From positions 39,675-103,674 of the forward strand of contig CAYQJU010000001.1 of assembly GCA_964417875.1 (NCBI GenBank): a stretch of 64,000 nucleotides of DNA. Direction: 5' to 3'. This document shows, piece by piece, positions 6,861 to 49,222 of the stretch (its first letter is position 1; every line of letters begins with the position of its first letter). The notes under the pieces were generated by a model. It was not told the DNA's origin and ran no database searches. It saw only the letters and a list, made by a program, of their open reading frames with translations. The stretch comes from an uncultured Steroidobacteraceae bacterium (GTDB lineage: Bacteria; Pseudomonadota; Gammaproteobacteria; Steroidobacterales; Steroidobacteraceae). The translations under genes were made by a program, and so were the position numbers.

Positions 6861-7667
6861 ATGTTCTGTGCGCCACGACCGGAAAACCGCCGCGGGCCTG
6901 ATGACAATGGCGACATGTCCAATGTCGTCAATCTGCGACCGGCCGGTCGCCCGGATCCCTTTGCGCCCGTCCCGGCGCGTCTGCTTGCGGCGCTGGAAGC
7001 GGAGCTGGCGCGCTGCCCGCCGAAGCCGCCGGGCATCACGGCCTGCGTGGCCTGGCTGCAGGAGCCTGCTGCTGCACTGAGTGAATGGCGCATGGCCGTC
7101 CGCGCACTGGAACAGCTGCGTGATGGCCTGTTCGCGGCCCGCGGCCGGGAGGCAGAGATGGCGCTGCTGTGGCGCGAAGCGCTGGCGACGGCCTGCTATG
7201 CACGCGTCATCGCTTGCCGGATGTCATTTGACTCACCGCTGCTCACCGGTGCCGGGCTGCTGCATCGGGTCGGCGAGATCGCCGCGCTGCGTGCGCTGGC
7301 ACTGGCCGAAGCGGGTTCGGGCCAGCGACTGGTCGGCCCGGTAATGCAGCAGATCATGGAAGCGCGCACCGACGAGCTGGTGTCGCGCGTGACGCGCAGC
7401 TGGGGACTGCCCAGCAGCGAACTGCGCCTGACGCTGCTGCGCTGGCGCGATGAGCAGGAAAGCCTGCAGCGGCCGCAGGCGGTGACATTGCTGATGATGG
7501 CGCAGGCGCTGGCTACGGAGCTGGTGCATGCGGCGACCTGCACGCCGGGGCTGGTGGAGGTGGCGCAGCAGTCGCTGGGGTTGCCGGTGGATCTGGTGGC
7601 GGAGTCGCGCGCGCAGACCGCCGGCATTGGCAGGCTGCTGGAACAGCTCTCGCCCGCGCAGGGCTGA
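6861..7667 (+). CDS. HDOD-like domain protein (signal-transduction accessory protein)
   Basis: The segment LWREALATACYARVIA...GAGLLHRVGEIAALRAL resembles the HDOD core. The start is uncertain (ATG 6861 or ATG 6915). The gene is convergent with motB. Confidence 0.5.
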   Translation: MFCAPRPENRRGPDDNGDMSNVVNLRPAGRPDPFAPVPARLLAALEAELARCPPKPPGITACVAWLQEPAAALSEWRMAVRALEQLRDGLFAARGREAEMALLWREALATACYARVIACRMSFDSPLLTGAGLLHRVGEIAALRALALAEAGSGQRLVGPVMQQIMEARTDELVSRVTRSWGLPSSELRLTLLRWRDEQESLQRPQAVTLLMMAQALATELVHAATCTPGLVEVAQQSLGLPVDLVAESRAQTAGIGRLLEQLSPAQG

Positions 7668-7729
7668 GATTTCATCCGGATCACGTGCGTGCGGCTGCGA
7701 TCGCGGCGGCCGGATGCCCTGCTGTCGTT

Positions 7730-8911
7730 TCAGGGCGTGCTGGCGGAGATGGCCAAGCCCGCGGCAGCCAGCGCCGCTTCGGCCGCCGCTGCGGCACGGC
7801 GCGTCTTTTCCGCGGGTGTCCCCGTGGTGATCGTATCGGCGGTGATGTGGGCCGTGGCGGCCTGCGCGGCATCTGCCGCGGCACCGGAAGCAGCCGCCTG
7901 CGCTGGCTGCCCGTTGGCAACCCCGGCCACCTCCGCCGCATCGGGCACGGCAGCACTCCCCCCGGGTCCATCGCTGTGCATCGCCGTGGATTCGATCTGC
8001 CGCCGCGCCGCCTCCACATCCGGCGCATCCGATGACAGCGCACGCGCCTCCGCGCTCTTGGTCATCACGATGATGCTGATGCGGCGATTGATCGGATTGT
8101 GCGGATTGTCCCGGTCGAACAGCACCGAGGAGGCAAGGCCGACGACCCGCGCGACCTTCTCCGCGGCCAGTCCGCCGGCCTGCAGTTCGCGTCGCGCGGC
8201 ATTCGCACGGTCGGCCGACAGGTCCCAGTTGGTATAGCCGCGCGTGCCCACATAGGCCTTGGCGTCGGTATGCCCGCTGAGGCTGATGCGGTTCGGCACG
8301 GTGTTCAGGTAGTGCGCCAGTTCGCGCAGGATGCGCGAGGTGTAGTCCTTCAGCCGCGTGCCGCCCAGGTCGAACATCGGGCGGTTCTGCTTGTCCACGA
8401 TCTGGATGCGCAGGCCCTCGGGCGTGATGTCCAGCAGCAGCTGGTCCTTGAAGGGCTCCAGCGCCTGGCTCTTCTCGATGGCCTCGCGCAGCTCTTCCAT
8501 CAGCGACTCGAGCTGGCGGCGTTCGCCCTCGTCGGCGATCTGCCGGGCCAGCTCCTCGCTGATGTCGGGCACCGGTTCGCCCAGCCCTTCGGCATTGCGT
8601 TCCATGGCGCGGGGCGCATCGAGCCCACCGCCCAGGTCGATGGGACTGGTGCTGGCGCCGCCCGGTCCCTGCTGTCCCGGCGCGGCCTTCACGCTCTGGC
8701 CCGGTTCCATGCTGGGGTTCTTGAAGTATTCGAAGATGGCGGCGCGCTGTTCCTTCGAAACCGACGTGACCAGCCACATCACGAGGAAGAAGGCCATCAA
8801 TGCGGTGACGAAGTCCGCATAGGCCACCTTCCAGGCACCACCGTGATGTCCGCCGGCGTTGCCGCGCCGGCGCTTGACGATGATGATCGGGCGCTTCTTC
8901 TCCTCCGCCAC
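7730..8911 (-). CDS. motB: Flagellar stator protein MotB (OmpA-like), with a long Ala-rich C-terminal extension
   Basis: N-terminal AWKVAYADFVTALMAFFLVMWL plug/TM segment and an OmpA-like peptidoglycan-binding domain (SGHTD...NRRISI). At 393 aa it is about 100 aa longer than usual MotB. Confidence 0.9.
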   Translation of the reverse strand: MAEEKKRPIIIVKRRRGNAGGHHGGAWKVAYADFVTALMAFFLVMWLVTSVSKEQRAAIFEYFKNPSMEPGQSVKAAPGQQGPGGASTSPIDLGGGLDAPRAMERNAEGLGEPVPDISEELARQIADEGERRQLESLMEELREAIEKSQALEPFKDQLLLDITPEGLRIQIVDKQNRPMFDLGGTRLKDYTSRILRELAHYLNTVPNRISLSGHTDAKAYVGTRGYTNWDLSADRANAARRELQAGGLAAEKVARVVGLASSVLFDRDNPHNPINRRISIIVMTKSAEARALSSDAPDVEAARRQIESTAMHSDGPGGSAAVPDAAEVAGVANGQPAQAAASGAAADAAQAATAHITADTITTGTPAEKTRRAAAAAEAALAAAGLAISASTP

Positions 8912-8917
8912 GAAATG

Positions 8918-9787
8918 TCAGCCCGCCGCCGGCTTCTTGCCGCGCAGTTCCTGTTCCAGGTCATGGAAGTTCGGGCGCACGCCACTGAACAGCAACTTGC
9001 GGGCGAACTCCACCGCCACGGGCGGCGGATAGCCACGCAGGCTGGCCACCAGCGCCATCTTCACCACCTCGAAGGCCTTGGCTTCCTCATGCGCGCGATG
9101 TTCCATCGCCGCGGCGATCGGGCCGACAAAACCATATGCCACGAGGATGCCGAGGAAGGTTCCCACCAGTGCGGCGCCGACGCGATGGCCGATCTCGGTG
9201 GTGCTTGCGCCATCGATGGCAGCCATGGTGCTGACGATGCCCATCACCGCGGCGACGATGCCGAAGCCCGGCAGTGCATCGGCCACCTTCTGCACCGCAT
9301 GGGCCGGCTCGGCGGCTTCCTTGTGGTGCGTCTCGAGTTCGTATTCGAGCAGGCTTTCCAGCTCGTGCGGATCGAGGTTGCCGCCGGATATCAGCCGCAG
9401 GCAGTCGGTGATGAACTCCATCATGTGATGGTCGGCCATCACGCCCGGATACTTCTTGAAGATGTCGCTCTTCTCGGGATTCTCGATGTGTCGTTCGATG
9501 GCCAGCACGCCGTCGCGGCGCGCCATCATCAGGATGTCGTACACCAGCTTCAGCAGTTCGATGTATTCATCACGGCCGTAGCGTGCGCCCTTCAGCAGCC
9601 CGACGGCGCCGGCAAACGCGGCCTTCACCACCTTCAGCGGATTGCTGATCAGGAAGGCCCCCAGCGCACCGCCGACGATGATCAGCACCTCGAAGGGGTG
9701 CCACAGCAGCAGCAGGCTGCTGCCGCTTGCCATGAATCCGCCCAGCACGCAGCCGAGTACAACCAGTGTTCCGATGATTGCGATCAT
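8918..9787 (-). CDS. motA: Flagellar stator protein MotA
   Basis: 289 aa with four TM segments and a typical MotA N-terminus (MIAIIGTLVVLGCVLGGF) and C-terminal channel helices. It lies immediately upstream of motB. Confidence 0.92.
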   Translation of the reverse strand: MIAIIGTLVVLGCVLGGFMASGSSLLLLWHPFEVLIIVGGALGAFLISNPLKVVKAAFAGAVGLLKGARYGRDEYIELLKLVYDILMMARRDGVLAIERHIENPEKSDIFKKYPGVMADHHMMEFITDCLRLISGGNLDPHELESLLEYELETHHKEAAEPAHAVQKVADALPGFGIVAAVMGIVSTMAAIDGASTTEIGHRVGAALVGTFLGILVAYGFVGPIAAAMEHRAHEEAKAFEVVKMALVASLRGYPPPVAVEFARKLLFSGVRPNFHDLEQELRGKKPAAG

Positions 9788-10857: not shown

Positions 10858-11571
10858 CTACAGGCTGACCCGCACCTGGTCGCGGGACTCCACCTGGCCC
10901 TCGACGATCTTGCGCGAGGTGAGGTTCAGCACGCGCACCCGGCCGGTGGGCCCGGCGTCCTGGATCGCTTCGCCCTGGGCCCGCACTTCCAGGCCGCCAA
11001 TGCTGGCCACCAGCGTCACGCGCTGTCCGCGCCGCACCAGGATGTCGGCGGCAAGCAGGTCGCTGGTCAGCGGCGTGCCGGCCGGAACCGGCCGCTTCAG
11101 GTGCCGCCCGTCCAGCTGTCTGATGTCGTCGATATAAGAGGAGGAAAGTCCCGGCACGCGCACCGTGCGAAGTTCCACGTCCGCACTGCCGACCTTGGCA
11201 TTGCGGGCCAGCGAGCGCTGCAGCACCAGCACGGGCAGTTCGGTCTCGACGCGCACCGGCACATACACCGTCCAGCGTGGACTCTCGCAGCTGACGCCCA
11301 CGGCAATCCGCGCCGACAGCGTGGTGGTGGAAGGCGGCAGCTGCGCTGCGGGTCGCTGCGAACAGCGGGGCAGGCGCAGCCGCGGGTCCATGGCGTCGGC
11401 GCTGGCATGCACTTGCCCTGTGCCCTCGGGCACCTGCGCCACGACGAAGGCCTCGGCCACCTGGCGCAGCTCATCGAGTGGATGCGGAGGCGGTGTCTGC
11501 GCATGGACCGTGCCCGCCGCGCACAGCGGCAGCGTCAGGATCCAGACGATGCGGGACTTGAATCGCAACAT
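10858..11571 (-). CDS. flgA: Flagellar P-ring assembly chaperone FlgA
   Basis: ATG at 11571 gives the signal peptide MLRFKSRIVWILTLPLCAAGTVHA and a C-terminal SAF-like domain (RRGQRVTLVA...GRVRVLN). The listed ORF 10858..12345 is an artefactual extension running through the flgB promoter. Confidence 0.85.
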   Translation of the reverse strand: MLRFKSRIVWILTLPLCAAGTVHAQTPPPHPLDELRQVAEAFVVAQVPEGTGQVHASADAMDPRLRLPRCSQRPAAQLPPSTTTLSARIAVGVSCESPRWTVYVPVRVETELPVLVLQRSLARNAKVGSADVELRTVRVPGLSSSYIDDIRQLDGRHLKRPVPAGTPLTSDLLAADILVRRGQRVTLVASIGGLEVRAQGEAIQDAGPTGRVRVLNLTSRKIVEGQVESRDQVRVSL

Positions 11572-11584
11572 GCCGAAGAGGGAA

Positions 11585-11599
11585 GCAAGTGCCGTGCCA
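11585..11599 (-). promoter_or_regulatory. Sigma-54 promoter of flgA
   Basis: The minus strand reads TGGCAC-GGCAC-TTGC, a perfect -24/-12 consensus. TTGC is followed by 13 nt (ttccctcttcggc, no SD) and then the flgA ATG. Confidence 0.75.
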
Positions 11600-11609
11600 C
11601 ATGCCCGGC

Positions 11610-11637
11610 TAAAGATCGCAGCGCCCAATGCCGATAT
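11610..11637 (+). promoter_or_regulatory. Sigma-28-like promoter upstream of the flgB sigma-54 promoter
   Basis: TAAAG-N15-GCCGATAT. The spacer is one nt longer than in the other sigma-28 sites in this window. Confidence 0.35.
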
Positions 11638-11701
11638 AGAAGATGCCGATGCCCGGCAACGGGTGATTGCCGCCGCCGCGGCACGCGGCTGCCGCCGCGC
11701 T

Positions 11702-11715
11702 GTGATGCGCATCAC
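11702..11715. promoter_or_regulatory. Perfect 14-bp palindrome GTGATGC|GCATCAC in the flgA-flgB divergent region (candidate activator site)
   Basis: The centre lies 64 bp upstream of the GG of the flgB sigma-54 promoter and 111 bp upstream of the GG of the flgA promoter. It belongs to the GTGAY-N4-RTCAC motif family seen at other sigma-54 promoters here. Confidence 0.5.
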
Positions 11716-11770: not shown

Positions 11771-11785
11771 TGGCACGCCAGTTGC
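11771..11785 (+). promoter_or_regulatory. Sigma-54 promoter of the flgBCDEFGHIJ operon
   Basis: TGGCAC-GCCAG-TTGC is a perfect consensus. It lies 38 nt upstream of the GTG start, which has a GGAG SD. Confidence 0.8.
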
Positions 11786-11823
11786 TCTGTACCCCGGCAG
11801 GACGGGTTTTTGACGGAGCACTC

Positions 11824-13342: not shown

Positions 13343-14560
13343 ATGACCTTCCGTCTCGCCCTCAGTGGCCTGAATGCCGCCTCCGCGGACCTCAACGTCA
13401 CGGCCAACAACATCGCCAACAGCTCCACCAACGGCTTCAAGGAATCGCGCGCCGAATTCGCCGAGCTGTTCGCCGTCTCGCCGCAGGGCGTGGCGACGCT
13501 GGCCACCGGCAATGGCGTGCGCGTGTCCGACATCGCGCAGCAGTTCAGCCAGGGCAACATCGACTTCACCGACAACAACCTGGACCTGGCCATCAGCGGC
13601 ACCGGGTTCTTCACCGTCAGCGACAATGGCTCCTACGCCTACACGCGCGCCGGTGCCTTCCGCACCGATGCCATGGGCTATGTCACCAATGCCCAGGGGC
13701 AGCGCCTGCAGGTGTTTCCGCCCGTCACCGGTGGTGGCTTCAATACCGGCGCACTGGCCGACCTGCGCCTGGTCACTTCCGAGAGTGCGCCTGCGGCCAC
13801 GAGCAACGTCGAGTTGCTGGCGAACCTGCCGGCCGACGCCGTGCCGCCGGCCAATGCCAACTTCGATCCGGCCGATCCGACCAGCTTCACACGCGCCACC
13901 TCGATGACGGTGTACGACTCGCTGGGCGCGGCGCACACCGCCACCGTCTACTTCGTGAAGGACGCGGCTGCGAATACCTGGAACACCCATTTCCATGTGG
14001 ATGGCGCGCCGGTCGGCGGCCCGGACCAGCTGGTATTCGACGACCAGGGCACGCTGGTCACGCCGCCCACCGGCGAGATCGCCATGCCCGCGTACACACC
14101 GGGTACCGGTGCTGCGGCGATGAACATCACGATGAACGTGAACGGCACCACGCAGTACGGCAGCACCTTCAGCGTCGGCAATATCACGCAGGATGGCTAT
14201 ACCACCGGCCGCCTGATCGGCATCGACATCGACAAGGGCGGTGTGGTGCAGGCGCGCTTCACCAATGGCCGCTCGCTGACGCTGGGCCAGGTGGCGCTGT
14301 CGAACTTCGCCAATCCCAACGGCCTGCAGCAGCTAGCCGACACCAACTGGGCCGAGACCTTCACCTCCGGCCAGGCGCTGCGCGGTCAGGCCGGGACCTC
14401 GGGCTTCGGCCTGCTCCAGTCAGGCGCGCTGGAGGCCTCGAACGTCGACATCACCACCCAGCTGGTGAACATGATCACCGCGCAGCGCAACTTCCAGGCG
14501 AACGCGAAGATGATCTCGACCTCCGACGCGATCACCCAGACCATCATCAACATCAGGTAA
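13343..14560 (+). CDS. flgE: Flagellar hook protein FlgE
   Basis: 405 aa with the N-terminal SGLNAASADLNVTANNIANSST and C-terminal EASNVD...MITAQRNFQAN motifs. Confidence 0.95.
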   Translation: MTFRLALSGLNAASADLNVTANNIANSSTNGFKESRAEFAELFAVSPQGVATLATGNGVRVSDIAQQFSQGNIDFTDNNLDLAISGTGFFTVSDNGSYAYTRAGAFRTDAMGYVTNAQGQRLQVFPPVTGGGFNTGALADLRLVTSESAPAATSNVELLANLPADAVPPANANFDPADPTSFTRATSMTVYDSLGAAHTATVYFVKDAAANTWNTHFHVDGAPVGGPDQLVFDDQGTLVTPPTGEIAMPAYTPGTGAAAMNITMNVNGTTQYGSTFSVGNITQDGYTTGRLIGIDIDKGGVVQARFTNGRSLTLGQVALSNFANPNGLQQLADTNWAETFTSGQALRGQAGTSGFGLLQSGALEASNVDITTQLVNMITAQRNFQANAKMISTSDAITQTIINIR

Positions 14561-26289: not shown

Positions 26290-26318
26290 TCCACTCCCGG
26301 TTGCACAATGGAGCGGAC

Positions 26319-26918
26319 ATGTACGAAGGCGTCGATACCATCATCCTGAACAACGAGCTGGCCTACCAGGACCTGCTGCCGGTGGCCTTCAAGCCGCTGG
26401 CGCGGCCAATGGAACTGCCGGCGGTCGCCGCGCTCACCGACCGCAATGTGCGCGTGCTGCAGGTCTGCGCGGTGCTGGAAGAGCAGGGCGCCGTCGAGAA
26501 GAAGGATGATGCCTCGCCGAATGCCACCGATGTGGCGCGCCTGGAGGTCAAGGTGAACCTGCTGCTCGATCTGGTCGGTCAGCTGCTGGCCGCGCAGGTT
26601 CCCCGTCCGGTGCCGGCGCTGGTGCGCTTCAATGCACTCGGCGCACTGTGGAAATCGGCCAATCCGCCGCGCGTCGGCCAGCAGGGGCTGCTGGAGATCT
26701 GGCTGCGCGACAGCCTGCCGCAGCCGCTGGCATTGATTGCCAATGTCACCCATGTCGCCGCCGATGGCCATGTGAAGGCCAGTTTCGTGCCGCCGGGTGA
26801 AGCGACCGCCGATCTGCTGGAGAAACTGGCGTTCCGCCGTCACCGGCGTCAGGTTGCCGGCTCCCGCCAGCCGCGCCGGCCGGGAAATGAGACGGCAATC
26901 ACAAGGATCCTCCGATGA
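26319..26918 (+). CDS. Atypical (tetrameric-type) PilZ-like domain protein
   Basis: ATG at 26319 is preceded by GGAG 5 nt upstream; the listed TTG at 26301 is less likely. The beta-rich ends flank a long central helix (DVARLEVKVNLLLDLVGQLLAAQ). The canonical RxxxR / DxSxxG motifs are absent. The layout resembles noncanonical Xanthomonas PilZ proteins found next to fleQ. This call is from memory only. Confidence 0.45.
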   Translation: MYEGVDTIILNNELAYQDLLPVAFKPLARPMELPAVAALTDRNVRVLQVCAVLEEQGAVEKKDDASPNATDVARLEVKVNLLLDLVGQLLAAQVPRPVPALVRFNALGALWKSANPPRVGQQGLLEIWLRDSLPQPLALIANVTHVAADGHVKASFVPPGEATADLLEKLAFRRHRRQVAGSRQPRRPGNETAITRILR

Positions 26919-26919
26919 T

Positions 26920-26934
26920 TGACGCGTTGCGTCA
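26920..26934. promoter_or_regulatory. Inverted repeat TGACGC-gtt-GCGTCA followed by CTTTTCC (weak terminator or operator upstream of the first sigma-54 activator)
   Basis: 6-bp arms, a 3-nt loop and a short T run. It starts 2 nt after the PilZ-like stop and lies 66 nt before the activator ATG. Confidence 0.3.
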
Positions 26935-27000
26935 CTTTTCCGACGCAGCAGGTTTGCGAGACTGGCCACCTTCGCAACCAACAACGAACAAACGCTGCAC

Positions 27001-28179
27001 ATGGCCACTGCTGAACTGGAAGTCCGCTCCGCGACCGTGACCCATCGGGGACCCACCGGTGAGTCCCCCCCCATCCGCCAGATCCTCACGCTGATCGACC
27101 AGGTTGCCGCGCATGACTCCAGTGTGCTGGTGCTGGGTGAATCGGGCACCGGCAAGGAAGTGGTGGCGCGCGCCATTCACAACTCCAGTCCGCGACGCCA
27201 TCGTCCCTTCATTGCCGTGAACTGCGGCGCCATTCCTGCCGACCTGCTCGAAAGCGAGCTGTTCGGACACGAGAAGGGTGCGTTCACCGGTGCGGTGGCC
27301 ACGCGCAAGGGCCGCTTCGAACTGGCCGATGGTGGCACGCTGTTCCTCGACGAGATCGGCGACATGAGCCTGCCGATGCAGGTGAAGCTGCTGCGCGTGC
27401 TGCAGGAGAAGGTGTTCGAGCGTGTCGGCAGCGCGCTGCAGTATCGCTGCAACGTGCGCATCATCGCCGCCACGCATCGCAACCTCGAGGACTCGATCAC
27501 CCGCGGCACATTCCGCGAGGACCTGTTCTACCGCCTGAACGTGTTTCCCATCGACATGCCCTCGCTGCGCGAGCGCAAGCAGGACCTGCCGGTACTGATC
27601 CGCGACTTCTCCGAAATGAACGTTGCGGCGGGCCGGGCGCGGGTGCTGCTGACGGCCGGCGCGATGGAATGCCTGGAGCGCTACAGCTGGCCTGGCAATG
27701 TGCGCGAGCTGGGCAACCTGATCGAACGGCTGTCCATCCTCTGCGGCGGCCGGCCGGTCGGCGCCCAGGATCTGCCGCCGCGCTATCGTCCGGCCGACTG
27801 GACGCCGCCGGCGGACGATGATCGCGTGCCCGAAGCTGCTCCGCTCCTGATTGCCGCCGCGCCCGCGCCGACGGCGGCCATCGCCGATGCCGGCGCCCCG
27901 GCGACCGAGCGCGAGCACGCGACGCGCCTCTCCGAACGCGAAGTGCTGCTGATGCTCGAGGACCCGGCCACCGGCAGCGGCACGGTGTTGCCGCCCGGCG
28001 GCATCGATCTGCGCGCGCATGTGTCCTCGATCGAGGAATCGCTGATCCGCCAGGCGCTGGAGCGCAGCAATGGCGTGGTCGCGCAGGCCGCAAGGCTGCT
28101 GCAGCTTCGCCGCACCACGCTGGTGGAGAAGTTGCGCAAGTTCGGCATCGGCGGCGTCGACGAAGCGACGGCCGATTGA
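27001..28179 (+). CDS. Sigma-54-dependent transcriptional activator, FleQ-like AAA+ and HTH domains, no N-terminal FleQ/receiver domain
   Basis: 392 aa with Walker A GESGTGKE, the GAFTGA loop, an FleQ-like tail LPPGGIDLRAHVSSIEESLIRQALERSNGVVAQAARLLQLRRTTLVEKLRKFGI, and only about 25 aa before the AAA+ core. Confidence 0.88.
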   Translation: MATAELEVRSATVTHRGPTGESPPIRQILTLIDQVAAHDSSVLVLGESGTGKEVVARAIHNSSPRRHRPFIAVNCGAIPADLLESELFGHEKGAFTGAVATRKGRFELADGGTLFLDEIGDMSLPMQVKLLRVLQEKVFERVGSALQYRCNVRIIAATHRNLEDSITRGTFREDLFYRLNVFPIDMPSLRERKQDLPVLIRDFSEMNVAAGRARVLLTAGAMECLERYSWPGNVRELGNLIERLSILCGGRPVGAQDLPPRYRPADWTPPADDDRVPEAAPLLIAAAPAPTAAIADAGAPATEREHATRLSEREVLLMLEDPATGSGTVLPPGGIDLRAHVSSIEESLIRQALERSNGVVAQAARLLQLRRTTLVEKLRKFGIGGVDEATAD

Positions 28180-28198: not shown

Positions 28199-28212
28199 GT
28201 GACACGCGTCAC
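28199..28212. promoter_or_regulatory. GTGAC-ACGC-GTCAC inverted repeat just upstream of the second activator's sigma-54 promoter
   Basis: It matches GTGAY-N4-RTCAC. The centre lies 28 bp upstream of the promoter GG. Confidence 0.4.
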
Positions 28213-28231: not shown

Positions 28232-28247
28232 CGGCACGGAACTTGCT
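28232..28247 (+). promoter_or_regulatory. Sigma-54 promoter of the second sigma-54 activator gene (probably also fliE-fliK)
   Basis: CGGCAC-GGAAC-TTGCT. TTGC is followed by 13 nt (tctctcctcggtc, no SD) and then ATG 28260. Confidence 0.7.
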
Positions 28248-28259
28248 CTCTCCTCGGTC

Positions 28260-29258
<999 letters not shown>

Positions 29259-34744: not shown

Positions 34745-34768
34745 AACCGGCACCCGCGTCCGGTTTTT
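34745..34768 (+). terminator. Weak rho-independent terminator after fliK
   Basis: AACCGG-(9 nt)-CCGGTT followed by TTT. The stem is short. Confidence 0.35.
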
Positions 34769-34774
34769 GGCACT

Positions 34775-34788
34775 GTGCGGCAATTCAC
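34775..34788. promoter_or_regulatory. GTGCG-GCAA-TTCAC, a degenerate member of the GTG-N8-CAC repeat family upstream of fliL
   Basis: The centre lies 68 bp upstream of the GG of the fliL sigma-54 promoter. It is embedded in the longer palindrome CTGTG-N8-CACAG. Confidence 0.35.
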
Positions 34789-34847: not shown

Positions 34848-34863
34848 TGGCACACGCCTTGCA
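34848..34863 (+). promoter_or_regulatory. Sigma-54 promoter of the fliL-fliN-fliOPQR-flhB operon
   Basis: TGGCAC-ACGCC-TTGCA is a perfect consensus. It lies 49 nt upstream of the fliL ATG. Confidence 0.8.
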
Positions 34864-38045: not shown

Positions 38046-39161
38046 ATGTCTGAATCCGACCGCAGCGACCGTACAGAACAACCTACACCGAAGAAGCTGG
38101 AGGATGCCCGCCGCGAGGGCCGGGTTCCCCGTTCGCGTGAGCTGACCACGGCTGCGGTGATGGTGACCGCCGGCGCGGTGCTGACCGTGACCGGCGATTC
38201 CATCGGCGCACAGCTGGGCGATGTGATGCGCGGCGGGCTGAGTGTGTCACGCGAGCAGGCCTTTGATGTCACCGCGATGACACGCACCTTCAGCCAGCTG
38301 GCGGCGGCTGCGCTGTATTCCATCGCGCCGGTGCTGCTGGTGACGCTGCTGGCAGCGCTGGCCACGCCGCTGGCGATCGGCGGCTGGGCGGCCAGCAGCA
38401 AGGCGATCGCGCCGGACTTCAAGCGCCTCTCGCCGCTGTCCGGCATCAAGCGCATGTTCAGCCTGCGCAGCTGGGTGGAACTGGGCAAGGCGCTGGCCAA
38501 GTTCGCCGTGGTGGCCATTGCCGCCACCGTGATCCTCAAGCTCAGCGCCGACCGGCTGATGGGACTGGGCTCCGAACCCATCAACACCGCCATCGGACAC
38601 GCCATCACGCTGTCCGGCCAGGCGCTGATCGGCCTGACCGCAGCGCTGGTGCTGATCGCGGCGGTGGACGTGCCCTTCCAGATCTGGCAGTTCCGCCAGG
38701 ACATGCGCATGACGCGTGATGAAGTGCGCCGCGAGCACAAGGAGGCGGAGGGCTCCCCGGAGGTCAAGGGCCGCATCCGCGCCCTGCAGCGCGAGATGGC
38801 CGAGCGCCGGATGATGGAGGAGGTCCCGCGCGCCGACGTGATCGTCGTGAATCCGACGCACTACGCGGTGGCGCTGCGCTATGACGACAAGACCATGCGC
38901 GCCCCGCGGGTGGTGGCCAAGGGCGTGGACCTGATGGCGCTTCGAATCCGTGAAGTGGCTTCCGGACACAACGTCCCGATCTTCGAGGCGCCGCCGCTGG
39001 CCCGCGCCTTGCATCGCCATGTGGAGATCGGTGACGAGATTCCGTCGGGGCTGTATGCCGCGGTCGCCCAGGTGCTGACCTACATCTTCCAGCTGCGCGC
39101 TGCGAAGGCAGGCAGGGCACCCCGGCCGGAACGTCCAACGATCGACATGCCCCAGGCGTGA
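38046..39161 (+). CDS. flhB: Flagellar export switch protein FlhB
   Basis: 371 aa with the N-terminal DRTEQPTPKKLEDARREGRVPRSRE and the NPTH autocleavage site (VVNPTHYAVAL). Confidence 0.96.
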   Translation: MSESDRSDRTEQPTPKKLEDARREGRVPRSRELTTAAVMVTAGAVLTVTGDSIGAQLGDVMRGGLSVSREQAFDVTAMTRTFSQLAAAALYSIAPVLLVTLLAALATPLAIGGWAASSKAIAPDFKRLSPLSGIKRMFSLRSWVELGKALAKFAVVAIAATVILKLSADRLMGLGSEPINTAIGHAITLSGQALIGLTAALVLIAAVDVPFQIWQFRQDMRMTRDEVRREHKEAEGSPEVKGRIRALQREMAERRMMEEVPRADVIVVNPTHYAVALRYDDKTMRAPRVVAKGVDLMALRIREVASGHNVPIFEAPPLARALHRHVEIGDEIPSGLYAAVAQVLTYIFQLRAAKAGRAPRPERPTIDMPQA

Positions 39162-44178: not shown

Positions 44179-44913
44179 GTGCTGAGCCTGATTGGAATCA
44201 TCCTGGCGCTGGTGGCGCTGCTGGTCGGAGCCGTGCTGAAGGGCGCCGGCCTGCATGCGCTGCTGTCGTGGGCGGCGCTGATGATCGTGGTGGTGGGCAC
44301 CTTTGCCGCCATCCTGGTCCAGACGCCCGGGCGGGTGATGCAGCGCGCGTTCGCCATCCTGCCATGGGTGTTCCGTTCGCCGGTGCCTGACCGCCGCGCC
44401 ATCATCGCGCGCATGGTGGAGTGGAGCCAGGTGGCGCGCCGCCAGGGCCTGCTGGGCCTTGAGCCGCAACTCGATGAGGAGAAGGACGACTTCATCCGCA
44501 AGGGGCTGCAGCTGGTCATCGACGGCAGCGAGCCGGAGGACATCCGCAGCATCCTCGAGGTGGAACTGGAAGGCCGCGAAGCCGCCGACCTGCGCGCCGC
44601 GAAGGTGTTCGAAGGCATGGGCGTGTATGCGCCGACGCTGGGCATCGTCGGTGCCGTGCTCGGCCTGATGTCGGTGATGCAGAACCTCACCGATCCGGCG
44701 CGCCTCGGCACCGGCATCGCCGCCGCATTCACCGCCACCGTGTATGGCATCGCGCTGGCCAACCTGTTCCTGCTGCCGATGGCCAACAAGCTGAAGAACT
44801 CGGCGCAGGCACTGGGGCATGTGCGGCAGATGGTGGTCGAGGGCATGATTGCCATCGCGCAGGGCGAGAATCCGCGCAGCATCGACTACCGCCTGCAGAG
44901 CTACCTGCACTGA
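44179..44913 (+). CDS. motC: Second flagellar stator protein, MotA/PomA family (MotC-like)
   Basis: 244 aa with a GTG start, four TM helices and the C-terminal GIAAAFTATVYGIALANLFLLPMANKL typical of MotA/TolQ/ExbB channels. It follows fliA as in Pseudomonas-type clusters. Confidence 0.88.
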   Translation: MLSLIGIILALVALLVGAVLKGAGLHALLSWAALMIVVVGTFAAILVQTPGRVMQRAFAILPWVFRSPVPDRRAIIARMVEWSQVARRQGLLGLEPQLDEEKDDFIRKGLQLVIDGSEPEDIRSILEVELEGREAADLRAAKVFEGMGVYAPTLGIVGAVLGLMSVMQNLTDPARLGTGIAAAFTATVYGIALANLFLLPMANKLKNSAQALGHVRQMVVEGMIAIAQGENPRSIDYRLQSYLH

Positions 44914-45680
44914 TGGCCCGGCGCCGGCGTCAACGGCCCGAGGAGCACGCCAACCACGAGGGATGGGCCATTCCCTATGGCGATCTTGTGACCTTGCTGC
45001 TGGCCTTCTTCGTCGTGATGTATGCCATCTCACAGGTCAACGAGGGCAAGTACCGCGTGCTGTCCGATTCATTGAACGCCGCATTCCGCGGCGAGCCCAC
45101 CACCTTCGATCCGGTGCAGGTGGGCCAGCCGGCCGCCAGCACCGTGGCCGCCCCCATCGTGCAGCTGCCCGAGGAGATCCGCAGCATGGCCATGCGCCAG
45201 CTCGCGCAGCAGGCCATGGAAGCGATGGATCCCCTGATCCGCCAGGGCCTGGTTGATGTGGAAGCCGGCGAGGGCAGGCTGACCATCGCCATCCGCTCGG
45301 ACATCCTGTTTGCCTCCGGCTCGGCATCGCCCTCGGCGCAGGCGCAATCGGTGGCGCGGCTGCTGGGCGAGGTGCTGCGCGCCTTCCCGGTCAACATCAG
45401 GGTGCAGGGCCATACCGACAATGTGCCGGTGGTATCGGGCAGCTATCCCTCCAACTGGGAATTGTCGGCGGCGCGCGCCGCAAGCGTGGTGCATCTGCTG
45501 GTGGCAGGCGGCGTCGCGCCGCAACGCCTGGCCGCTGTCGCCCATGGCGAATATCAGCCCGTGCTTCCGAACGACACGCCCGACGGACGCAACGCCAATC
45601 GCCGCGTGGTGCTGCTGGTGGAGGCCGGCGATGGCGCCGACGCAGCGGCCGCCGTGCAGGCCACCGCAGATTCCACGTGA
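44913..45680 (+). CDS. motD: Second flagellar stator protein, MotB family (MotD-like)
   Basis: 255 aa with WAIPYGDLVTLLLAFFVVMYA and an OmpA-like domain (VQGHTDNVP...NRRVVLLV). It overlaps the motC stop. Confidence 0.88.
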   Translation: MARRRRQRPEEHANHEGWAIPYGDLVTLLLAFFVVMYAISQVNEGKYRVLSDSLNAAFRGEPTTFDPVQVGQPAASTVAAPIVQLPEEIRSMAMRQLAQQAMEAMDPLIRQGLVDVEAGEGRLTIAIRSDILFASGSASPSAQAQSVARLLGEVLRAFPVNIRVQGHTDNVPVVSGSYPSNWELSAARAASVVHLLVAGGVAPQRLAAVAHGEYQPVLPNDTPDGRNANRRVVLLVEAGDGADAAAAVQATADST

Positions 45681-45690
45681 CCCGCATCAC
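45677..45690. promoter_or_regulatory. GTGAC-CCGC-ATCAC inverted repeat overlapping the motD stop codon
   Basis: It matches GTGAY-N4-RTCAC perfectly. The centre lies exactly 64 bp upstream of the GG of the downstream sigma-54 promoter, the same offset as at flgB. Confidence 0.5.
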
Positions 45691-45745: not shown

Positions 45746-45761
45746 TGGCACGCTTCCTGCT
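45746..45761 (+). promoter_or_regulatory. Sigma-54 promoter of the DUF2802-HDOD gene pair
   Basis: TGGCAC-GCTTC-CTGCT. It lies 55 nt upstream of ATG 45816, which has an AAGGA SD. Confidence 0.65.
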
Positions 45762-45815
45762 CCATTCCCTGCAGGTGCCGGCGGACCGGCGCATGCATTC
45801 ATCAAGGATTTCGCA

Positions 45816-47150: not shown

Positions 47151-47176
47151 GGCGCCGGTTTTCCGGCGCCACTTTG
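47151..47176 (+). terminator. Hairpin / weak terminator after the HDOD gene
   Basis: GGCGCCGG-tttt-CCGGCGCC forms a perfect 8-bp stem followed by ACTTTG. The T tract is short. Confidence 0.4.
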
Positions 47177-47189
47177 TGATCCGCTTCAC
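47176..47189. promoter_or_regulatory. GTGAT-CCGC-TTCAC repeat next to the fliG sigma-54 promoter
   Basis: It has one mismatch to GTGAY-N4-RTCAC. The centre lies 20 bp upstream of the promoter GG. Confidence 0.35.
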
Positions 47190-47200
47190 ATCCATCGCGC

Positions 47201-47216
47201 CGGCACGGTGTTTGCA
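47201..47216 (+). promoter_or_regulatory. Sigma-54 promoter of fliG-fliM-fliN2(-cheY)
   Basis: CGGCAC-GGTGT-TTGCA. TTGC is followed by 13 nt (attgaacacagcg, no SD) and then ATG 47229. Confidence 0.65.
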
Positions 47217-47228
47217 TTGAACACAGCG

Positions 47229-48215
47229 ATGGCAACTGAAATCCAATCCACCCGAAGTGCCGCCGTGCTTCTGCTCGCATTGGGCGAAGGCGAGGCGGCC
47301 ACCGTGCTCAAGCACCTGGACGCCAAGGTCGTGCAGCGCCTCGGCACCGCCATGGCGCAGCTGAAGTCTGCCTCGCGCGAGGAAGTCAGCGAGGTGGTGG
47401 GCGGTTTTGTCGAGACGATGGAATCGCAGGCCGACATCAAGGTCGGCTCCGATGATTACATCCGCAAGGTGCTGACGCAGGCACTGGGCGATGAGCGCGC
47501 CAGCGGCATCATCGACCGCATCCAGATGGGCCGGCGCTCCAAGGGACTGGACGTGCTGAAGTGGATGGAGCCGCGCGCCATCGCCGAGGTGATCCGCCTC
47601 GAGCATCCGCAGATCCTTGCCATCGTGATCTCCTACCTTGATCCGGACCTTGCCGCCAAGGTGCTCAACGAGCTGCCCAAGGACGTGCAGGCCGAGGTCA
47701 TCATGCGCATCGCGCAGCTCGATGGCGTGCAGCCCTCCGCGCTCGGCAAGCTCGACGAGATGATCGAGAAGCAGATCGCCGGCAAGGGCAGCAGCGTGTC
47801 GGCCAACCTCGGCGGCCCGAAGACCGCCGCCAGCATCCTGAACTTCATGCCGGCCGCAACGCTCGACGAGCTGCGCCAGGCCGACGAGGCGCTGACCATG
47901 CGCCTGCAGGACCTGATGTTCACCTTCGAGGACATGATCAACATCGACGACAAGGGCATCCAGGCGATCCTTCGCGAGATCGATTCGGCGCGCCTGGTGG
48001 TGGCACTGAAGGGTGCGGACGCCTCGCTGGTGGACCGCTTCCTGAAGAACATGTCCAGCCGCGCCGCCGAGATGCTGAAGGACGACATGGAGGCGCGCGG
48101 ACCGGTGCGCCTCTCCGAAGTGGAAGAAGCGCAGCGCGAGATCCTCGCCACCACGCGCCGCCTGGCCGAAGCCGGCTCCGTGGTCATCAACGCCGGCAGT
48201 GAGCAGTACGTATGA
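47229..48215 (+). CDS. fliG: Flagellar rotor/switch protein FliG
   Basis: AAVLLLALGEGEAATVLKHL, EHPQILAIVISYL, MFTFEDM and the C-terminal torque-helix region (MSSRAAEMLKDDME...EEAQREI) are all present. ATG 47229 is preferred because GTG 47208 lies inside a sigma-54 promoter consensus. Confidence 0.93.
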   Translation: MATEIQSTRSAAVLLLALGEGEAATVLKHLDAKVVQRLGTAMAQLKSASREEVSEVVGGFVETMESQADIKVGSDDYIRKVLTQALGDERASGIIDRIQMGRRSKGLDVLKWMEPRAIAEVIRLEHPQILAIVISYLDPDLAAKVLNELPKDVQAEVIMRIAQLDGVQPSALGKLDEMIEKQIAGKGSSVSANLGGPKTAASILNFMPAATLDELRQADEALTMRLQDLMFTFEDMINIDDKGIQAILREIDSARLVVALKGADASLVDRFLKNMSSRAAEMLKDDMEARGPVRLSEVEEAQREILATTRRLAEAGSVVINAGSEQYV

Positions 48216-49222
48216 GCGGGGAAATCCTCGACCAGGAAGAGATCGACGCCCTCGTCAACGGCGTGCAGAGCGGTGCGGTCGACGTCGACCCGAAGCCGGC
48301 CGACGACGTGCGCACGGCGCGCGACTACGATTTCAGCACCCAGACCCGCATCGTGCGCGGGCGCATGCCCACGCTCGAGATGATCAACGAGCGAATGGCC
48401 CGCGCGCTGCGCATGTCGCTGTTCAACATGTTGCGCCGCTCGCCGGAGATCTCGGTGCAGGGCATCTCCACGCCGAAGTACGCCGAATACGTGGCGACGC
48501 TGGCCGTGCCCACCAGCCTGAACCTGATCCGCTTCCAGCCGCTGTCGGGCACCGCTCTGATGATCTTCGAGGCCAAGCTGGTGTTCGCGCTGATCGATGT
48601 GTTCTTCGGCGGCACCGGCCGCCACGCGAAGATCGAGGGCCGTGACTTCACGCCCACCGAGAACGACATCATCCACCTGCTGATGGAGCAGGCGTTCGCG
48701 GCGGTGGAGGAGGCCTGGGCGGCCATCCTGCCGGCGCGAATCGAGTACATCAACCGCGAGGTCAATCCGAACTTCGCCCACATCGTCAGCCCCACCGAGA
48801 TCGTGGTGGTCAGCCGGCTGCGCGTGGAATTCGAGGGCCGCGGTGGGGAGATCCACCTGACGCTGCCCTATTCGATGCTCGAGCCGCTGAAGGACACATT
48901 ACGCGCCGGCATGCAGACCGATCGCGCCGACCGCGAGGAGCGCTGGTCGCAGCTGCTGCGCAACGAGCTGGAGGAATCGGAGGTCGACCTGGTCACGCTG
49001 CTGGGCACTGCCCAGACCACCGTGGCACGGCTGATCGACATGCGCCCCGGCGATGTGATCCCGTTCGAATTCGATGGCCAGGCCACCGTGCTGGCCGACG
49101 GCATCCCGCTGTTCTGGGGTGAACTGGGCCAGCAGCGCGGATGCCAGGTCGTGCGCGTGCAGCAGATGAACGCCCGCAAGACGGGCAATTCCCTGGATGC
49201 CTTCGTGAGGAAGTCAGCATGA
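48212..49222 (+). CDS. fliM: Flagellar switch protein FliM
   Basis: 336 aa with the N-terminal CheY-P-binding LDQEEIDALV-type motif, a middle domain (GGTG motif FFGGTGRH) and a C-terminal SpoA-like domain. Confidence 0.94.
   Translation: MSGEILDQEEIDALVNGVQSGAVDVDPKPADDVRTARDYDFSTQTRIVRGRMPTLEMINERMARALRMSLFNMLRRSPEISVQGISTPKYAEYVATLAVPTSLNLIRFQPLSGTALMIFEAKLVFALIDVFFGGTGRHAKIEGRDFTPTENDIIHLLMEQAFAAVEEAWAAILPARIEYINREVNPNFAHIVSPTEIVVVSRLRVEFEGRGGEIHLTLPYSMLEPLKDTLRAGMQTDRADREERWSQLLRNELEESEVDLVTLLGTAQTTVARLIDMRPGDVIPFEFDGQATVLADGIPLFWGELGQQRGCQVVRVQQMNARKTGNSLDAFVRKSA

What the first reader, a model, noticed from the sequence alone, without database searches (positions are those of the whole stretch)
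11702..11715. A 14-bp inverted repeat GTGAY-N4-RTCAC recurs upstream of the sigma-54 promoters (candidate flagellar activator box)
I found five instances by eye in flagellar intergenic DNA. GTGATGCGCATCAC (11702..11715) is a perfect palindrome between flgA and flgB. GTGACCCGCATCAC (45677..45690) lies upstream of DUF2802. GTGACACGCGTCAC (28199..28212) lies upstream of the second activator. GTGATCCGCTTCAC (47176..47189) lies upstream of fliG and has one mismatch. GTGCGGCAATTCAC (34775..34788) lies upstream of fliL and is degenerate. The distance from the box centre to the promoter GG is exactly 64 bp at both flgB and DUF2802, and 68 bp at fliL. These are typical enhancer distances for sigma-54 activators. 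At the two predicted leaderless promoters the box lies only 28 and 20 bp from the GG, which could mean a different role such as repression or autoregulation. A 10-position motif like this should occur well under once per 64 kb by chance. The sequence differs from the Pseudomonas FleQ box as I remember it.
Basis: seen in the sequence. Interest (0 to 1): 0.72.

Follow-up and report, generated by a model that had tools for sequence, protein, structure and literature searches.

The report
Conserved palindrome at sigma-54 flagellar promoters
A short DNA palindrome (GTGA-N6-TCAC) sits upstream of every sigma-54 flagellar promoter in this Steroidobacteraceae gene cluster and is conserved in relatives, so it is almost certainly a regulator-binding site, most likely the enhancer for two unusual truncated flagellar activators encoded in the cluster, although it also matches the site of CRP/Clp-type regulators.

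Summary
GTGAYN4RTCAC occurs 3 times against 0.23 expected. The true core, Y-GTGA-N6-TCAC-R, occurs 5 times in 64 kb, and 4 of these lie just upstream of sigma-54 promoters (P about 1e-7). The fifth listed site (fliL, GTGC-N6-TCAC) is a conserved variant.

All six strong sigma-54 promoters (flgA, flgB, activator 2, fliL, DUF2802, fliG) have the box. None of the sigma-28-type promoters does.

In 297 kb of related Steroidobacteraceae DNA, all 26 non-coding copies lie within 125 bp of a sigma-54 promoter. Half-sites are invariant, centres vary, and spacing is fixed for three of the genes (flgB 69, activator 2 33, fliG 22-25 bp).

The cluster encodes two activators without N-terminal regulatory domains. 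One is FleQ-type and one FlrC/FleT-type, and both keep an HTH.

Best reading (about 0.55): the box is their enhancer, with the 4-6-4 geometry of the Pseudomonas FleQ box but different bases. Which activator binds it is unresolved.

Main rival (about 0.27): a CRP/Clp-family site, because the core equals TGTGA-N6-TCACA.

A second conserved palindrome (GCGCCGGAwwwCCGGCGC) accompanies the box at several promoters.

Verdict: a new variant of a known kind, of moderate interest.

The parts
11702..11715 (.). Box A (cTGTGATGCGCATCACg), shared by the divergent flgA and flgB sigma-54 promoters
   Evidence: Exact match. Orthologs L003-L005 keep TGTGA..TCAC exactly 69 bp (start to start) before the flgB promoter.
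11771..11786 (+). Sigma-54 promoter of flgB (TGGCACGCCAGTTGCT)
   Evidence: 0 mismatches to TGGCACN5TTGCW. Invariant in alignment A1.
11584..11599 (-). Sigma-54 promoter of flgA (TGGCACGGCACTTGCT on the minus strand). The flgA ATG at 11571 follows 12 nt after it.
   Evidence: Conserved in L003-L005. FlgA identified by Pfam.
28199..28212 (.). Box A (cCGTGACACGCGTCACg) upstream of activator 2, centre about -52
   Evidence: Exact match. Conserved 33 bp before the promoter in L001, L003-5, L087 and L089. A perfect box is also present in outgroup L034/36/37/50.
28232..28247 (+). Sigma-54 promoter of the activator 2-fliE-fliF-fliH-fliI-fliJ operon. The ATG at 28260 follows 12 nt after it.
34775..34788 (.). 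Box A variant (cTGTGCGGCAATTCACAg; GTGC-N6-TCAC) upstream of fliL
   Evidence: Conserved as TGTGCG-N4-GTCACA in L087-L089 at the same distance, and in outgroup L034/L037.
34848..34863 (+). Sigma-54 promoter of fliL-fliN-fliOPQR-flhB
45677..45690 (.). Box A (aCGTGACCCGCATCACg) upstream of DUF2802. Its left half-site contains the motB stop codon.
   Evidence: Exact match. A box is present in L010 and L013-L016 at 31-61 bp before the promoter.
45746..45761 (+). Sigma-54 promoter of DUF2802-HDOD (TGGCACGCTTCCTGCT)
47176..47189 (.). Box A (tTGTGATCCGCTTCACAt) upstream of fliG, centre about -44
   Evidence: Exact core match. Of the 20 further fliG loci (L007-L028), 15 keep an exact box and 4 a one-mismatch box 22-25 bp before the promoter; L023 keeps only the right half-site.
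47201..47216 (+). Sigma-54 promoter of fliG-fliM-fliN2. The ATG at 47229 follows 12 nt after it.
27001..28179 (+). Activator 1: FleQ/FlrA-type sigma-54 activator without the N-terminal domain; AAA+ domain plus HTH_8
   Evidence: Pfam. Best PDB hit is FleQ 8p53 (E=8e-108), aligned from FleQ residue 146, with recognition helix RRTTLVEK(L/M)RK identical.
28260..29258 (+). Activator 2: FlrC/FleR/FleT-type sigma-54 activator without a receiver domain; AAA+ domain plus HTH_8
   Evidence: Pfam. Best PDB hit is V. cholerae FlrC 4qhs (E=9e-94). Best NCBIfam match is FlbD, below its cutoff. The HTH ([11 protein letters not shown]) matches that of classical REC-FlrC proteins.
47151..47170 (.). Motif B (GGCGCCGGTTTTCCGGCGCC), a second conserved palindrome 5 nt upstream of the fliG box
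   Evidence: As conserved as box A across 20 fliG loci.
11667..11696 (.). B-type GC-rich palindromes (TTGCCGC-N4-GCGGCA..CTGCCGC) upstream of the flgB box
   Evidence: Conserved block in alignment A1. It contains the CGGCA(A) hexamer cited as the FlrC motif in bioRxiv 10.1101/2021.08.29.457346.
45776..45791 (.). B-like palindrome (TGCCGGCGGACCGGCG) in the DUF2802 leader, downstream of the promoter
   Evidence: Relatives carry GCGCCGGaatACCGGCG at the same place.

Best explanation
Box A (Y-GTGA-N6-TCAC-R) is a protein-binding site dedicated to the sigma-54 flagellar regulon of Steroidobacteraceae. It is most likely the upstream activating sequence (enhancer) recognised by the HTH dimer of one or both of the truncated enhancer-binding proteins encoded in the cluster. 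These are activator 1 (FleQ-type) and activator 2 (FlrC/FleT-type).

Proposed mechanism. Binding concentrates the activator next to RNA polymerase-sigma-54 held in a closed complex at the -24/-12 promoter. The AAA+ ring then uses ATP to open the promoter.

Two promoter architectures exist. One has distal boxes, at about -80 to -136 (flgA, flgB, fliL, DUF2802). The other has promoter-proximal boxes, at about -44 and -52 (fliG and the activator 2-fliE-fliF operon). The proximal promoters drive the genes that form the FleQ-only class II operon in Cereibacter sphaeroides.

Shown: the motif, its exclusive association with sigma-54 promoters, its conservation and spacing, and the domain make-up and family of the two activators.

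Inferred: that an activator binds the box, which activator it is, and the class II/class III interpretation.
For: Enrichment: 3 exact matches against 0.23 expected. The core occurs 5 times in 64 kb, and 4 of these lie within 130 bp upstream of a sigma-54 promoter (P about 1e-7).

Uniqueness: it is the only gapped palindrome shared by the sigma-54 upstream regions.

Specificity: all six strong sigma-54 promoters have the box and the sigma-28-type promoters do not. In 297 kb of same-clade DNA, 26 of 26 non-coding boxes lie within 125 bp of a sigma-54 promoter.

Footprint: half-sites are invariant, the centre varies, and spacing is fixed for three of the genes (flgB, activator 2, fliG). The box persists in an outgroup whose activators are about 65% identical.

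Candidate binders: apart from FliA, the only DNA-binding regulators found in the flagellar cluster are the two bEBPs, and both keep an HTH_8 domain.

Precedent: the 14-bp 4-6-4 dyad has the same geometry as the FleQ box GTCaNTAAAtTGAC (PMC8125075; PMC10723142). FleQ is known to act from sites upstream or downstream of the promoter (title of Jyot 2002, cited). Cereibacter FleQ/FleT is a precedent for two activators that lack N-terminal domains and work in a cascade (PMC11999139; PMC7277832; PMC9542535).
Against: No binding data exist.

Activator 1 has exactly the FleQ recognition helix, yet box A differs from the FleQ box at one key base per half-site and has a GC-rich centre. FleQ's Fis-like HTH goes with an A/T-rich centre.

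Motif B, not box A, resembles the element proposed for Xanthomonas FleQ.

Outgroups L029/30/38/44 lack box A although activator 1's helix is unchanged.

Boxes centred at -44 and -52 are unusually close to the promoter for an enhancer.

The core is identical to the CRP/Clp consensus.
Confidence: 0.55

Rival explanations
1. Box A is the site of a CRP/FNR-family regulator (a Clp-like c-di-GMP or cAMP receptor) encoded elsewhere in the genome. This protein would sit at every sigma-54 flagellar promoter and gate or assist activation, for example by bending DNA between the true activator site (motif B) and the polymerase. Second-messenger level would then control each flagellar operon directly.
For: The core equals TGTGA-N6-TCACA, and the fliG site TGTGATCCGCTTCACA is a perfect 16-bp match.

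The centre is unconserved and GC-rich, as in CRP-type sites and unlike FleQ boxes.

Clp binds this consensus in Stenotrophomonas and Xanthomonas and directly controls rpoN2-fleQ and some motility genes.

Where motif B lies upstream (fliG, fliL, flgB), box A lies between it and the promoter.

Presence or absence of box A among lineages does not track the invariant FleQ-type helix.
Against: [quoted passage not shown] Here the box is at every sigma-54 promoter, and only a one-mismatch copy (in the tPilZ 3' end) lies upstream of activator 1.

There are no copies at sigma-28 or non-flagellar intergenic regions in 297 kb.

Flanks are Y/R and not T/A.

Box-to-promoter spacing varies by up to 4 bp at fliG and by 38 bp (31-69) at DUF2802, which is loose for a contact-dependent CRP mechanism.

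No CRP-like gene was found in 905 kb of held DNA, although that DNA is a biased sample.
Confidence: 0.27
2. Box A is an operator for a dedicated repressor or anti-activator, or an autoregulatory site. It would limit sigma-54 transcription, especially at the promoter-proximal copies (-44, -52), where a bound protein would occupy the space the activator ring needs.
For: The proximal boxes end only 8-20 bp from the promoter element. Cereibacter FleT feeds back on the class II operon (PMC11999139).
Against: The same motif lies at -80 to -136 at four other promoters, where simple occlusion cannot work. No candidate repressor gene is present in the cluster. The sigma-54 promoters need an activator site, and box A is the only element they all share.
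Confidence: 0.1
3. The recurrence is chance or a by-product of sequence composition, with no function.
For: The genome is 68% G+C, and GC-rich palindromes are common.
Against: There are 3 matches against 0.23 expected. All non-coding copies are promoter-associated. Position and half-sites are conserved across lineages whose flanks have diverged.
Confidence: 0.01

Closest known systems
Pseudomonas FleQ box (GTCaNTAAAtTGAC; Baraquet and Harwood 2016, as quoted in PMC8125075 and PMC10723142)
   Same: It is a 14-bp dyad with 4-6-4 geometry, bound by the dimeric Fis-like HTH of a flagellar sigma-54 activator. Activator 1 here has the identical recognition helix. FleQ sites can lie at atypical positions relative to the promoter.
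   Different: The half-sites are GTGA/TCAC, not GTCA/TGAC. The centre is GC-rich and unconserved, not A/T-rich. The activator lacks FleQ's N-terminal domain. The box is present at all sigma-54 flagellar promoters here.
CRP / Vfr / Clp site (TGTGA-N6-TCACA), e.g. Clp of Stenotrophomonas and Xanthomonas (bioRxiv 10.64898/2026.02.02.703240)
   Same: The core sequence and spacing are identical. The centre is variable. There is a link to motility and c-di-GMP in a neighbouring lineage.
   Different: Here the motif is confined, in all DNA examined, to sigma-54 promoters. Flanks are Y/R. No CRP-family gene was seen. Known Clp wiring acts mainly on the master operon and not on each flagellar operon.
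Cereibacter (Rhodobacter) sphaeroides FleQ/FleT cascade and its UAS (Poggio 2005; Pena-Sanchez 2009; reviewed in PMC7277832 and PMC11999139)
   Same: Both systems have two sigma-54 activators without N-terminal regulatory domains (PMC9542535). Gene order is fleQ followed by fleT-fliE-fliF.... The second activator is itself expressed from a sigma-54 promoter. UASs lie about 100 bp upstream of most promoters (recalled from the abstract; the paper is not held).
   Different: FleT lacks a DNA-binding domain, whereas activator 2 here keeps an HTH_8. fliG has moved to its own operon. The published FleQ/FleT consensus could not be retrieved for comparison.
Xanthomonas campestris FleQ element (gaaacCCgccgCcgctTt immediately upstream of the RpoN site; quoted in PMC12271599)
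   Same: It belongs to a high-GC relative. It resembles motif B (GGAAAACCGGCGC / GCCAGAAAACCGTC), which accompanies box A here and abuts the promoter in outgroups that lack the box.
   Different: It does not resemble box A. It is a weak, predicted consensus.
NifA upstream activating sequence TGT-N10-ACA (from my own knowledge, not checked here)
   Same: About half of the box A sites (those with T and A flanks) fit TGT-N10-ACA. This shows that a Fis-type HTH of a sigma-54 activator can read such a dyad.
   Different: The regulon and the protein are different. Many box A sites have C and G flanks.

Membership tests
Enhancer (UAS) of a sigma-54 activator | Lies close to a -24/-12 sigma-54 promoter | tested here: met
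   6 of 6 strong sigma-54 promoters in the window have it. 26 of 26 non-coding boxes in 297 kb lie within 125 bp of such a promoter.
Enhancer (UAS) of a sigma-54 activator | Dyad symmetry suited to a dimeric HTH, conserved in orthologous promoters | tested here: met
   Half-sites are invariant and the centre is variable in 42 distinct sites.
Enhancer (UAS) of a sigma-54 activator | A cognate activator with a DNA-binding domain is encoded | tested here: met
   Two activators, each with an HTH_8 domain.
Enhancer (UAS) of a sigma-54 activator | Usual position about 80-150 bp upstream of the start site | tested here: inconclusive
   flgA, flgB, fliL and DUF2802 have centres at about -80 to -136. 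Activator 2 and fliG have centres at about -52 and -44.
Enhancer (UAS) of a sigma-54 activator | Bound by the activator and required for activation | not testable with these tools
   Needs EMSA or footprinting and reporter mutagenesis.
Pseudomonas-type FleQ box | GTCA...TGAC arms | tested here: not met
   Arms are GTGA...TCAC in 42 sites. Consensus taken from PMC8125075.
Pseudomonas-type FleQ box | A/T-rich centre | tested here: not met
   Positions 5-10 are mostly C or G.
Pseudomonas-type FleQ box | FleQ-family protein with the FleQ recognition helix is present | tested here: met
   Activator 1 against 8p53: helix RRTTLVEK(L/M)RK is identical.
CRP/Clp-family binding site | TGTGA-N6-TCACA core | tested here: met
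   GTGA-N6-TCAC is invariant. The flanking positions are T in 21 of 42 sites and A in 22 of 42. 47175-47190 is a perfect match.
CRP/Clp-family binding site | A CRP/FNR-family protein is present in the organism | not testable with these tools
   None in the window or in 905 kb of held loci, but the rest of the genome is not available.
CRP/Clp-family binding site | Sites spread over many unrelated, mostly sigma-70, promoters | tested here: not met
   No non-coding copy away from sigma-54 promoters in 297 kb. This sample is biased towards flagellar regions, so the test is weak.
FleQ/FleT-type two-activator flagellar cascade (Cereibacter fla1) | Both activators lack N-terminal regulatory domains | tested here: met
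   The AAA+ domain starts at residue 20 in both. The feature is stated for FleQ/FleT in PMC9542535.
FleQ/FleT-type two-activator flagellar cascade (Cereibacter fla1) | The second activator heads the fliE-fliF... operon, behind a sigma-54 promoter | tested here: met
   fliG is absent from this operon here.
FleQ/FleT-type two-activator flagellar cascade (Cereibacter fla1) | The second activator (FleT) lacks a DNA-binding domain | tested here: not met
   Activator 2 has HTH_8 (28.8 bits against a cutoff of 22) with a FlrC-like helix.
FleQ/FleT-type two-activator flagellar cascade (Cereibacter fla1) | The two activators form hetero-oligomers | not testable with these tools
   Needs biochemistry.

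The most novel reading that the evidence does not exclude
Two-box enhancer code. Box A and motif B would be read by two different proteins at the same sigma-54 promoters.

Version (a): the FlrC-type and FleQ-type truncated activators each dock on their own palindrome and assemble a hetero-hexamer on adjacent A+B sites. The box at -44/-52 would then allow loop-free activation of leaderless sigma-54 promoters.

Version (b): a Clp-like second-messenger receptor occupies box A at every sigma-54 flagellar promoter and replaces IHF as the bending co-factor. c-di-GMP or cAMP would then gate each flagellar operon directly.

Neither arrangement has been described for a flagellar regulon.
Probability: 0.3. 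Interest if true: 0.65.

Novelty: new variant of a known kind. Interest (0 to 1): 0.45.

Why it matters
The result gives a testable cis-regulatory map for the flagellar regulon of Steroidobacteraceae, a widespread but little-studied soil and sediment family. It also links that map to a rare class of sigma-54 activators that have lost their sensory domains.

If the activators bind the box, it defines a new DNA specificity within the FleQ/FlrC families. This matters most for activator 1, because its recognition helix is identical to FleQ's while the site is different. It would also offer a compact system for studying how enhancer-binding proteins work from only 20-30 bp upstream of the polymerase, at promoters that appear to produce leaderless mRNAs.

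If a Clp-like protein binds the box instead, second-messenger control would be wired into every flagellar operon and not only into the master regulator.

Tried and rejected
1. Published Cereibacter FleQ/FleT consensus. Pena-Sanchez 2009, Correa and Klose 2005 and Jyot 2002 are not held, so no direct comparison was possible.

2. Covariation between HTH helices and the box. Activator 1's helix is invariant in all lineages, with or without the box. Activator 2 shows only small changes (P to A in the three box-less loci..KLAQLR in lineages that use the box fully). These probably reflect one or two phylogenetic events and are too weak to assign the binder.

3. fliE promoters of classical FlrA-FlrB-FlrC loci. 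They are too heterogeneous to show a FleQ-type box for comparison.

4. The skeleton CGCCG-N6-CGGCG as a statistical definition of motif B. It is not specific in a 68% G+C genome (54 matches against 37 expected). Motif B therefore rests on positional conservation only.

5. An independent annotated example on a plasmid (Qipengyuania citrea). It is a single-activator alphaproteobacterial system with no box A and is uninformative.

6. tblastn with E. coli CRP against all held DNA gave no hit. The sample is all flagellar neighbourhoods, so this is uninformative.

7. RNA-structure and terminator readings of box A were rejected. The box lies upstream of the promoters, has a 4-5 bp arm, and keeps its half-site sequence invariant with no compensatory changes.

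Full report
**1. Observation.**
The pattern GTGAYNNNNRTCAC has three exact matches in the 64-kb window against 0.23 expected from dinucleotide-preserving shuffles, and no shuffle reached three. Allowing one mismatch gives 18 matches against 6.6 expected, but 13 of the 15 additional ones lie inside genes, one (47176) is intergenic, and one (26889) sits in the tPilZ 3' end. The relaxed core GTGA-N6-TCAC occurs five times. Four copies lie immediately upstream of sigma-54 promoters. The fifth lies inside the coding ORF 13343-14560, at a peptide motif conserved in relatives. With about 1.2% of the window lying within 130 bp upstream of a sigma-54 promoter, four of five by chance has P of about 1e-7. 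An unbiased scan of all 4-mer gapped palindromes found GTGA-N6-TCAC to be the only specific one shared by these upstream regions.

**2. Context.**
The window has 67.8% G+C. It carries a complete flagellar cluster in this order: motA/B(-), flgN, flgM, flgA(-), flgB-L, fliC, flaG, fliD, fliS, an atypical PilZ gene, activator 1, activator 2, fliE, fliF, fliH-K, fliL, fliN-R, flhB, flhA, flhF, flhG, fliA, motA, motB, DUF2802, HDOD, fliG, fliM, a second fliN, cheY. Several of these names rest on position in the cluster and were not individually checked by Pfam. The closest genomes are Steroidobacteraceae MAGs.
- Strong -24/-12 elements (TGGCAC-N5-TTGCW, up to 1 mismatch) in intergenic DNA precede flgB, activator 2, fliL, DUF2802 and fliG.
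- A sixth, on the minus strand (11584-11599), precedes flgA.
- The flgA and flgB promoters are divergent and share one box.
- Sigma-28-type promoters (flgM, flgK, fliC, fliS, and one upstream of flgB) carry no box.

**3. Conservation.**
In related loci the box recurs at the orthologous places with fixed spacing at three genes, measured from box start to promoter start:
- 69 bp at flgB (4 of 4 loci);
- 33 bp at activator 2 (7 of 7 Steroidobacteraceae loci);
- 22-25 bp at fliG (an exact box in 16 of 21 loci and a one-mismatch box in 4 more);
- 31-69 bp at DUF2802 (6 of 6 loci).

Alignments show invariant half-sites, freely varying centres and much less conserved flanks. It is TGTGCG-N4-GTCACA in all four Steroidobacteraceae orthologs and in outgroup loci L034 and L037.

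Across 297 kb of same-clade DNA there are 41 exact cores:
- 26 are non-coding, and all 26 lie within 125 bp of a sigma-54 promoter;
- 5 overlap the motB 3' end and are also promoter-associated;
- 10 lie inside genes at conserved peptide motifs.

**4. The activators.**
Both lack an N-terminal regulatory domain (the AAA+ domain starts at residue 20), and both keep a Fis-type HTH.
- Activator 1 is FleQ-type. Its best solved relative is full-length FleQ (8p53, E=8e-108), aligned from FleQ residue 146. Its recognition helix RRTTLVEK(L/M)RK is identical to FleQ's and to that of classical FleQ/FlrA proteins in low-GC loci.
- Activator 2 is FlrC/FleR-type. Its best solved relative is V. cholerae FlrC (4qhs, E=9e-94), its best NCBIfam match is FlbD (below cutoff), and its helix [11 protein letters not shown] matches that of receiver-containing FlrC homologs.

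The gene order (activator 1, then activator 2-fliE-fliF...) and the loss of N-terminal domains match the FleQ/FleT system of Cereibacter sphaeroides. There, FleQ alone activates the fleT-fliEFGHIJ operon, and a FleQ/FleT hetero-oligomer activates the later genes (PMC11999139; PMC7277832; PMC9542535). Unlike FleT, activator 2 keeps its HTH.

**5. Best explanation.**
Sigma-54 promoters cannot fire without an enhancer-binding protein. Apart from FliA, the only DNA-binding regulators found in the flagellar cluster are these two. Box A is the one element common to all six sigma-54 promoters. The simplest reading is that box A is their enhancer.
- Its 14-bp 4-6-4 dyad has the geometry of the Pseudomonas FleQ box GTCaNTAAAtTGAC (PMC8125075; PMC10723142).
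- FleQ is known to act from unusual positions (Jyot 2002, title cited).
- The proximal boxes (centres at about -44 and -52) belong to fliG and to the activator 2-fliE-fliF-fliH-fliI-fliJ operon. Together these correspond to the Cereibacter class II operon. The distal boxes belong to genes that are class III there. This suggests two promoter classes and not necessarily repression. This step is inference.

**6. Why the binder is not settled.**
(a) Activator 1 has FleQ's exact helix. Even so, box A differs from the FleQ box at a key base in each half-site and has a GC-rich centre, whereas FleQ's HTH is Fis-like and its box has an A/T-rich centre.
(b) A second conserved palindrome, motif B (GCGCCGGAwwwCCGGCGC), accompanies box A:
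- at fliG it is as conserved as box A and lies 5 nt upstream of it;
- B-like elements lie upstream of the box at fliL and flgB;
- a B-like element lies in the leader downstream of the DUF2802 promoter.

Motif B, not box A, resembles the element proposed for Xanthomonas FleQ, which is described as lying immediately upstream of the RpoN site (PMC12271599). In outgroups without box A, a B-like element abuts the fliL promoter. The flgB version contains CGGCA(A), which is cited as the FlrC motif.
(c) Outgroups L029/30/38/44 lack box A at the activator 2 promoter although activator 1's helix is unchanged. Activator 2's helix shows only small lineage-specific changes. So box A could belong to activator 2, to activator 1, or to a hetero-complex that uses A and B together.

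**7. Main rival.**
The core is exactly the CRP/Clp consensus TGTGA-N6-TCACA, and the fliG site matches it perfectly. In Stenotrophomonas, the CRP-like c-di-GMP receptor Clp binds this motif and directly activates rpoN2-vemR-fleQ. Several points count against this reading here:
- that study notes that only a few motility genes carry the motif, and control is exerted at the top of the cascade;
- here the motif is at every sigma-54 promoter, with no exact copy at the activator 1 promoter, and only a one-mismatch copy sits in the tPilZ 3' end upstream;
- no copy was found at sigma-28 or non-flagellar intergenic DNA;
- spacing to the promoter is loose at fliG and DUF2802.

The sample is biased towards flagellar regions, so this rival keeps about a quarter of the probability.

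**8. Comparison and novelty.**
The feature works like a bEBP enhancer. It is not a member of the Pseudomonas FleQ-box family by sequence: the arms and the centre were tested and do not match. It fits the CRP/Clp consensus by sequence, but not by the distribution seen so far. No description of this motif or of flagellar regulation in Steroidobacteraceae turned up in the literature searches, which were aimed at other organisms. I rate it a new variant of a known kind, of moderate interest. What lifts it above routine is the combination of a CRP-like core at every sigma-54 promoter, two sensor-less activators that both keep an HTH, a second conserved palindrome, and promoter-proximal boxes at apparently leaderless sigma-54 promoters.

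**9. Dead ends.**
These are listed under "tried and rejected": missing papers, weak HTH covariation, uninformative classical loci and plasmid example, a non-specific motif B skeleton, and no CRP gene in the held DNA.

Noticed in passing
window 47151-47170; also 45776-45791, 11667-11696, 34760-34770; L007-L028; L030-L040: A second conserved palindrome, motif B (GGCGCCGGTTTTCCGGCGCC, core CGGAwwwCCG), lies 5 nt upstream of the fliG box and is as conserved as the box in 20 loci. B-like palindromes lie in the DUF2802 leader, and upstream of the boxes at flgB and fliL. In outgroups that lack box A, a B-like element abuts the fliL promoter. It resembles the element proposed for Xanthomonas FleQ.
   Followed up: partly
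window 11571-11599 (-), 28232-28262, 47201-47231: Three sigma-54 promoters (flgA, activator 2, fliG) have the start codon 12 nt after the promoter 16-mer. The predicted transcripts therefore have a leader of 0-3 nt. The spacing (11-15 nt) is conserved in close relatives, whereas more distant fliG loci (L023-L025, L027) have leaders of about 50 nt or more.
   Followed up: partly
window 11610-11636 (+): A sigma-28-type promoter (TAAAG-N15-GCCGATA) lies upstream of box A and the sigma-54 promoter in the flgA-flgB spacer and points towards flgB. It is conserved as TCAAGT-N14-GCCGAT in L003-L005. The flgB operon may therefore have both sigma-28 and sigma-54 promoters.
   Followed up: partly
window 47229-49491: fliG is not in the fliF operon (fliF is followed directly by fliH). 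It heads its own operon, fliG-fliM-second fliN (49141-49491, PF01052), downstream of DUF2802-HDOD. More distant relatives keep fliG after fliF.
   Followed up: partly
window 26301-26918; L001, L003-5, L029-L050, L087-89: An atypical PilZ (tPilZ, PF16823, a c-di-GMP receptor fold) gene lies next to the activator pair in nearly all REC-less loci examined: immediately upstream of activator 1, except in L044, where it lies between the two activators. It is a candidate trans-acting sensor for activators that have lost their own sensory domains.
   Followed up: no
window 26889-26945: Upstream of activator 1 there is no sigma-54 promoter. There is an invariant block TGCGTCACTTTTCCG within a palindrome TGACGC-N3-GCGTCA, plus a one-mismatch box-like GAGAC-N4-ATCAC in the tPilZ 3' end. 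Both are conserved in five loci.
   Followed up: partly
window 45677-45680; L010, L013, L014: The motB stop codon TGA is embedded in the left half-site GTGA of the DUF2802 box, so a regulatory half-site and a stop codon share bases.
   Followed up: partly
window 6861-9787: A second motA/motB pair lies on the minus strand, with an HDOD-domain gene next to it. This is in addition to the motA/motB pair at 44179-45680.
   Followed up: no
window 38998-39013: A sigma-54-like element (TGGCCCGCGCCTTGCA) lies inside the 3' end of flhB, 165 bp before flhA, with no box A upstream. Whether it is a real internal promoter is unknown.
   Followed up: no
activator 2 HTH: window 29160-29230; L034, L029 and others: The recognition-helix region of activator 2 reads ..YK(L/V)AQLR in the lineages that use box A at several promoters, and ..YKLAR(M/L)R in the other lineages and in classical FlrC. 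L029/30/38, which lack the box, have ARTL instead of PRTL. This is a weak hint that activator 2 may be the box A reader.
   Followed up: partly
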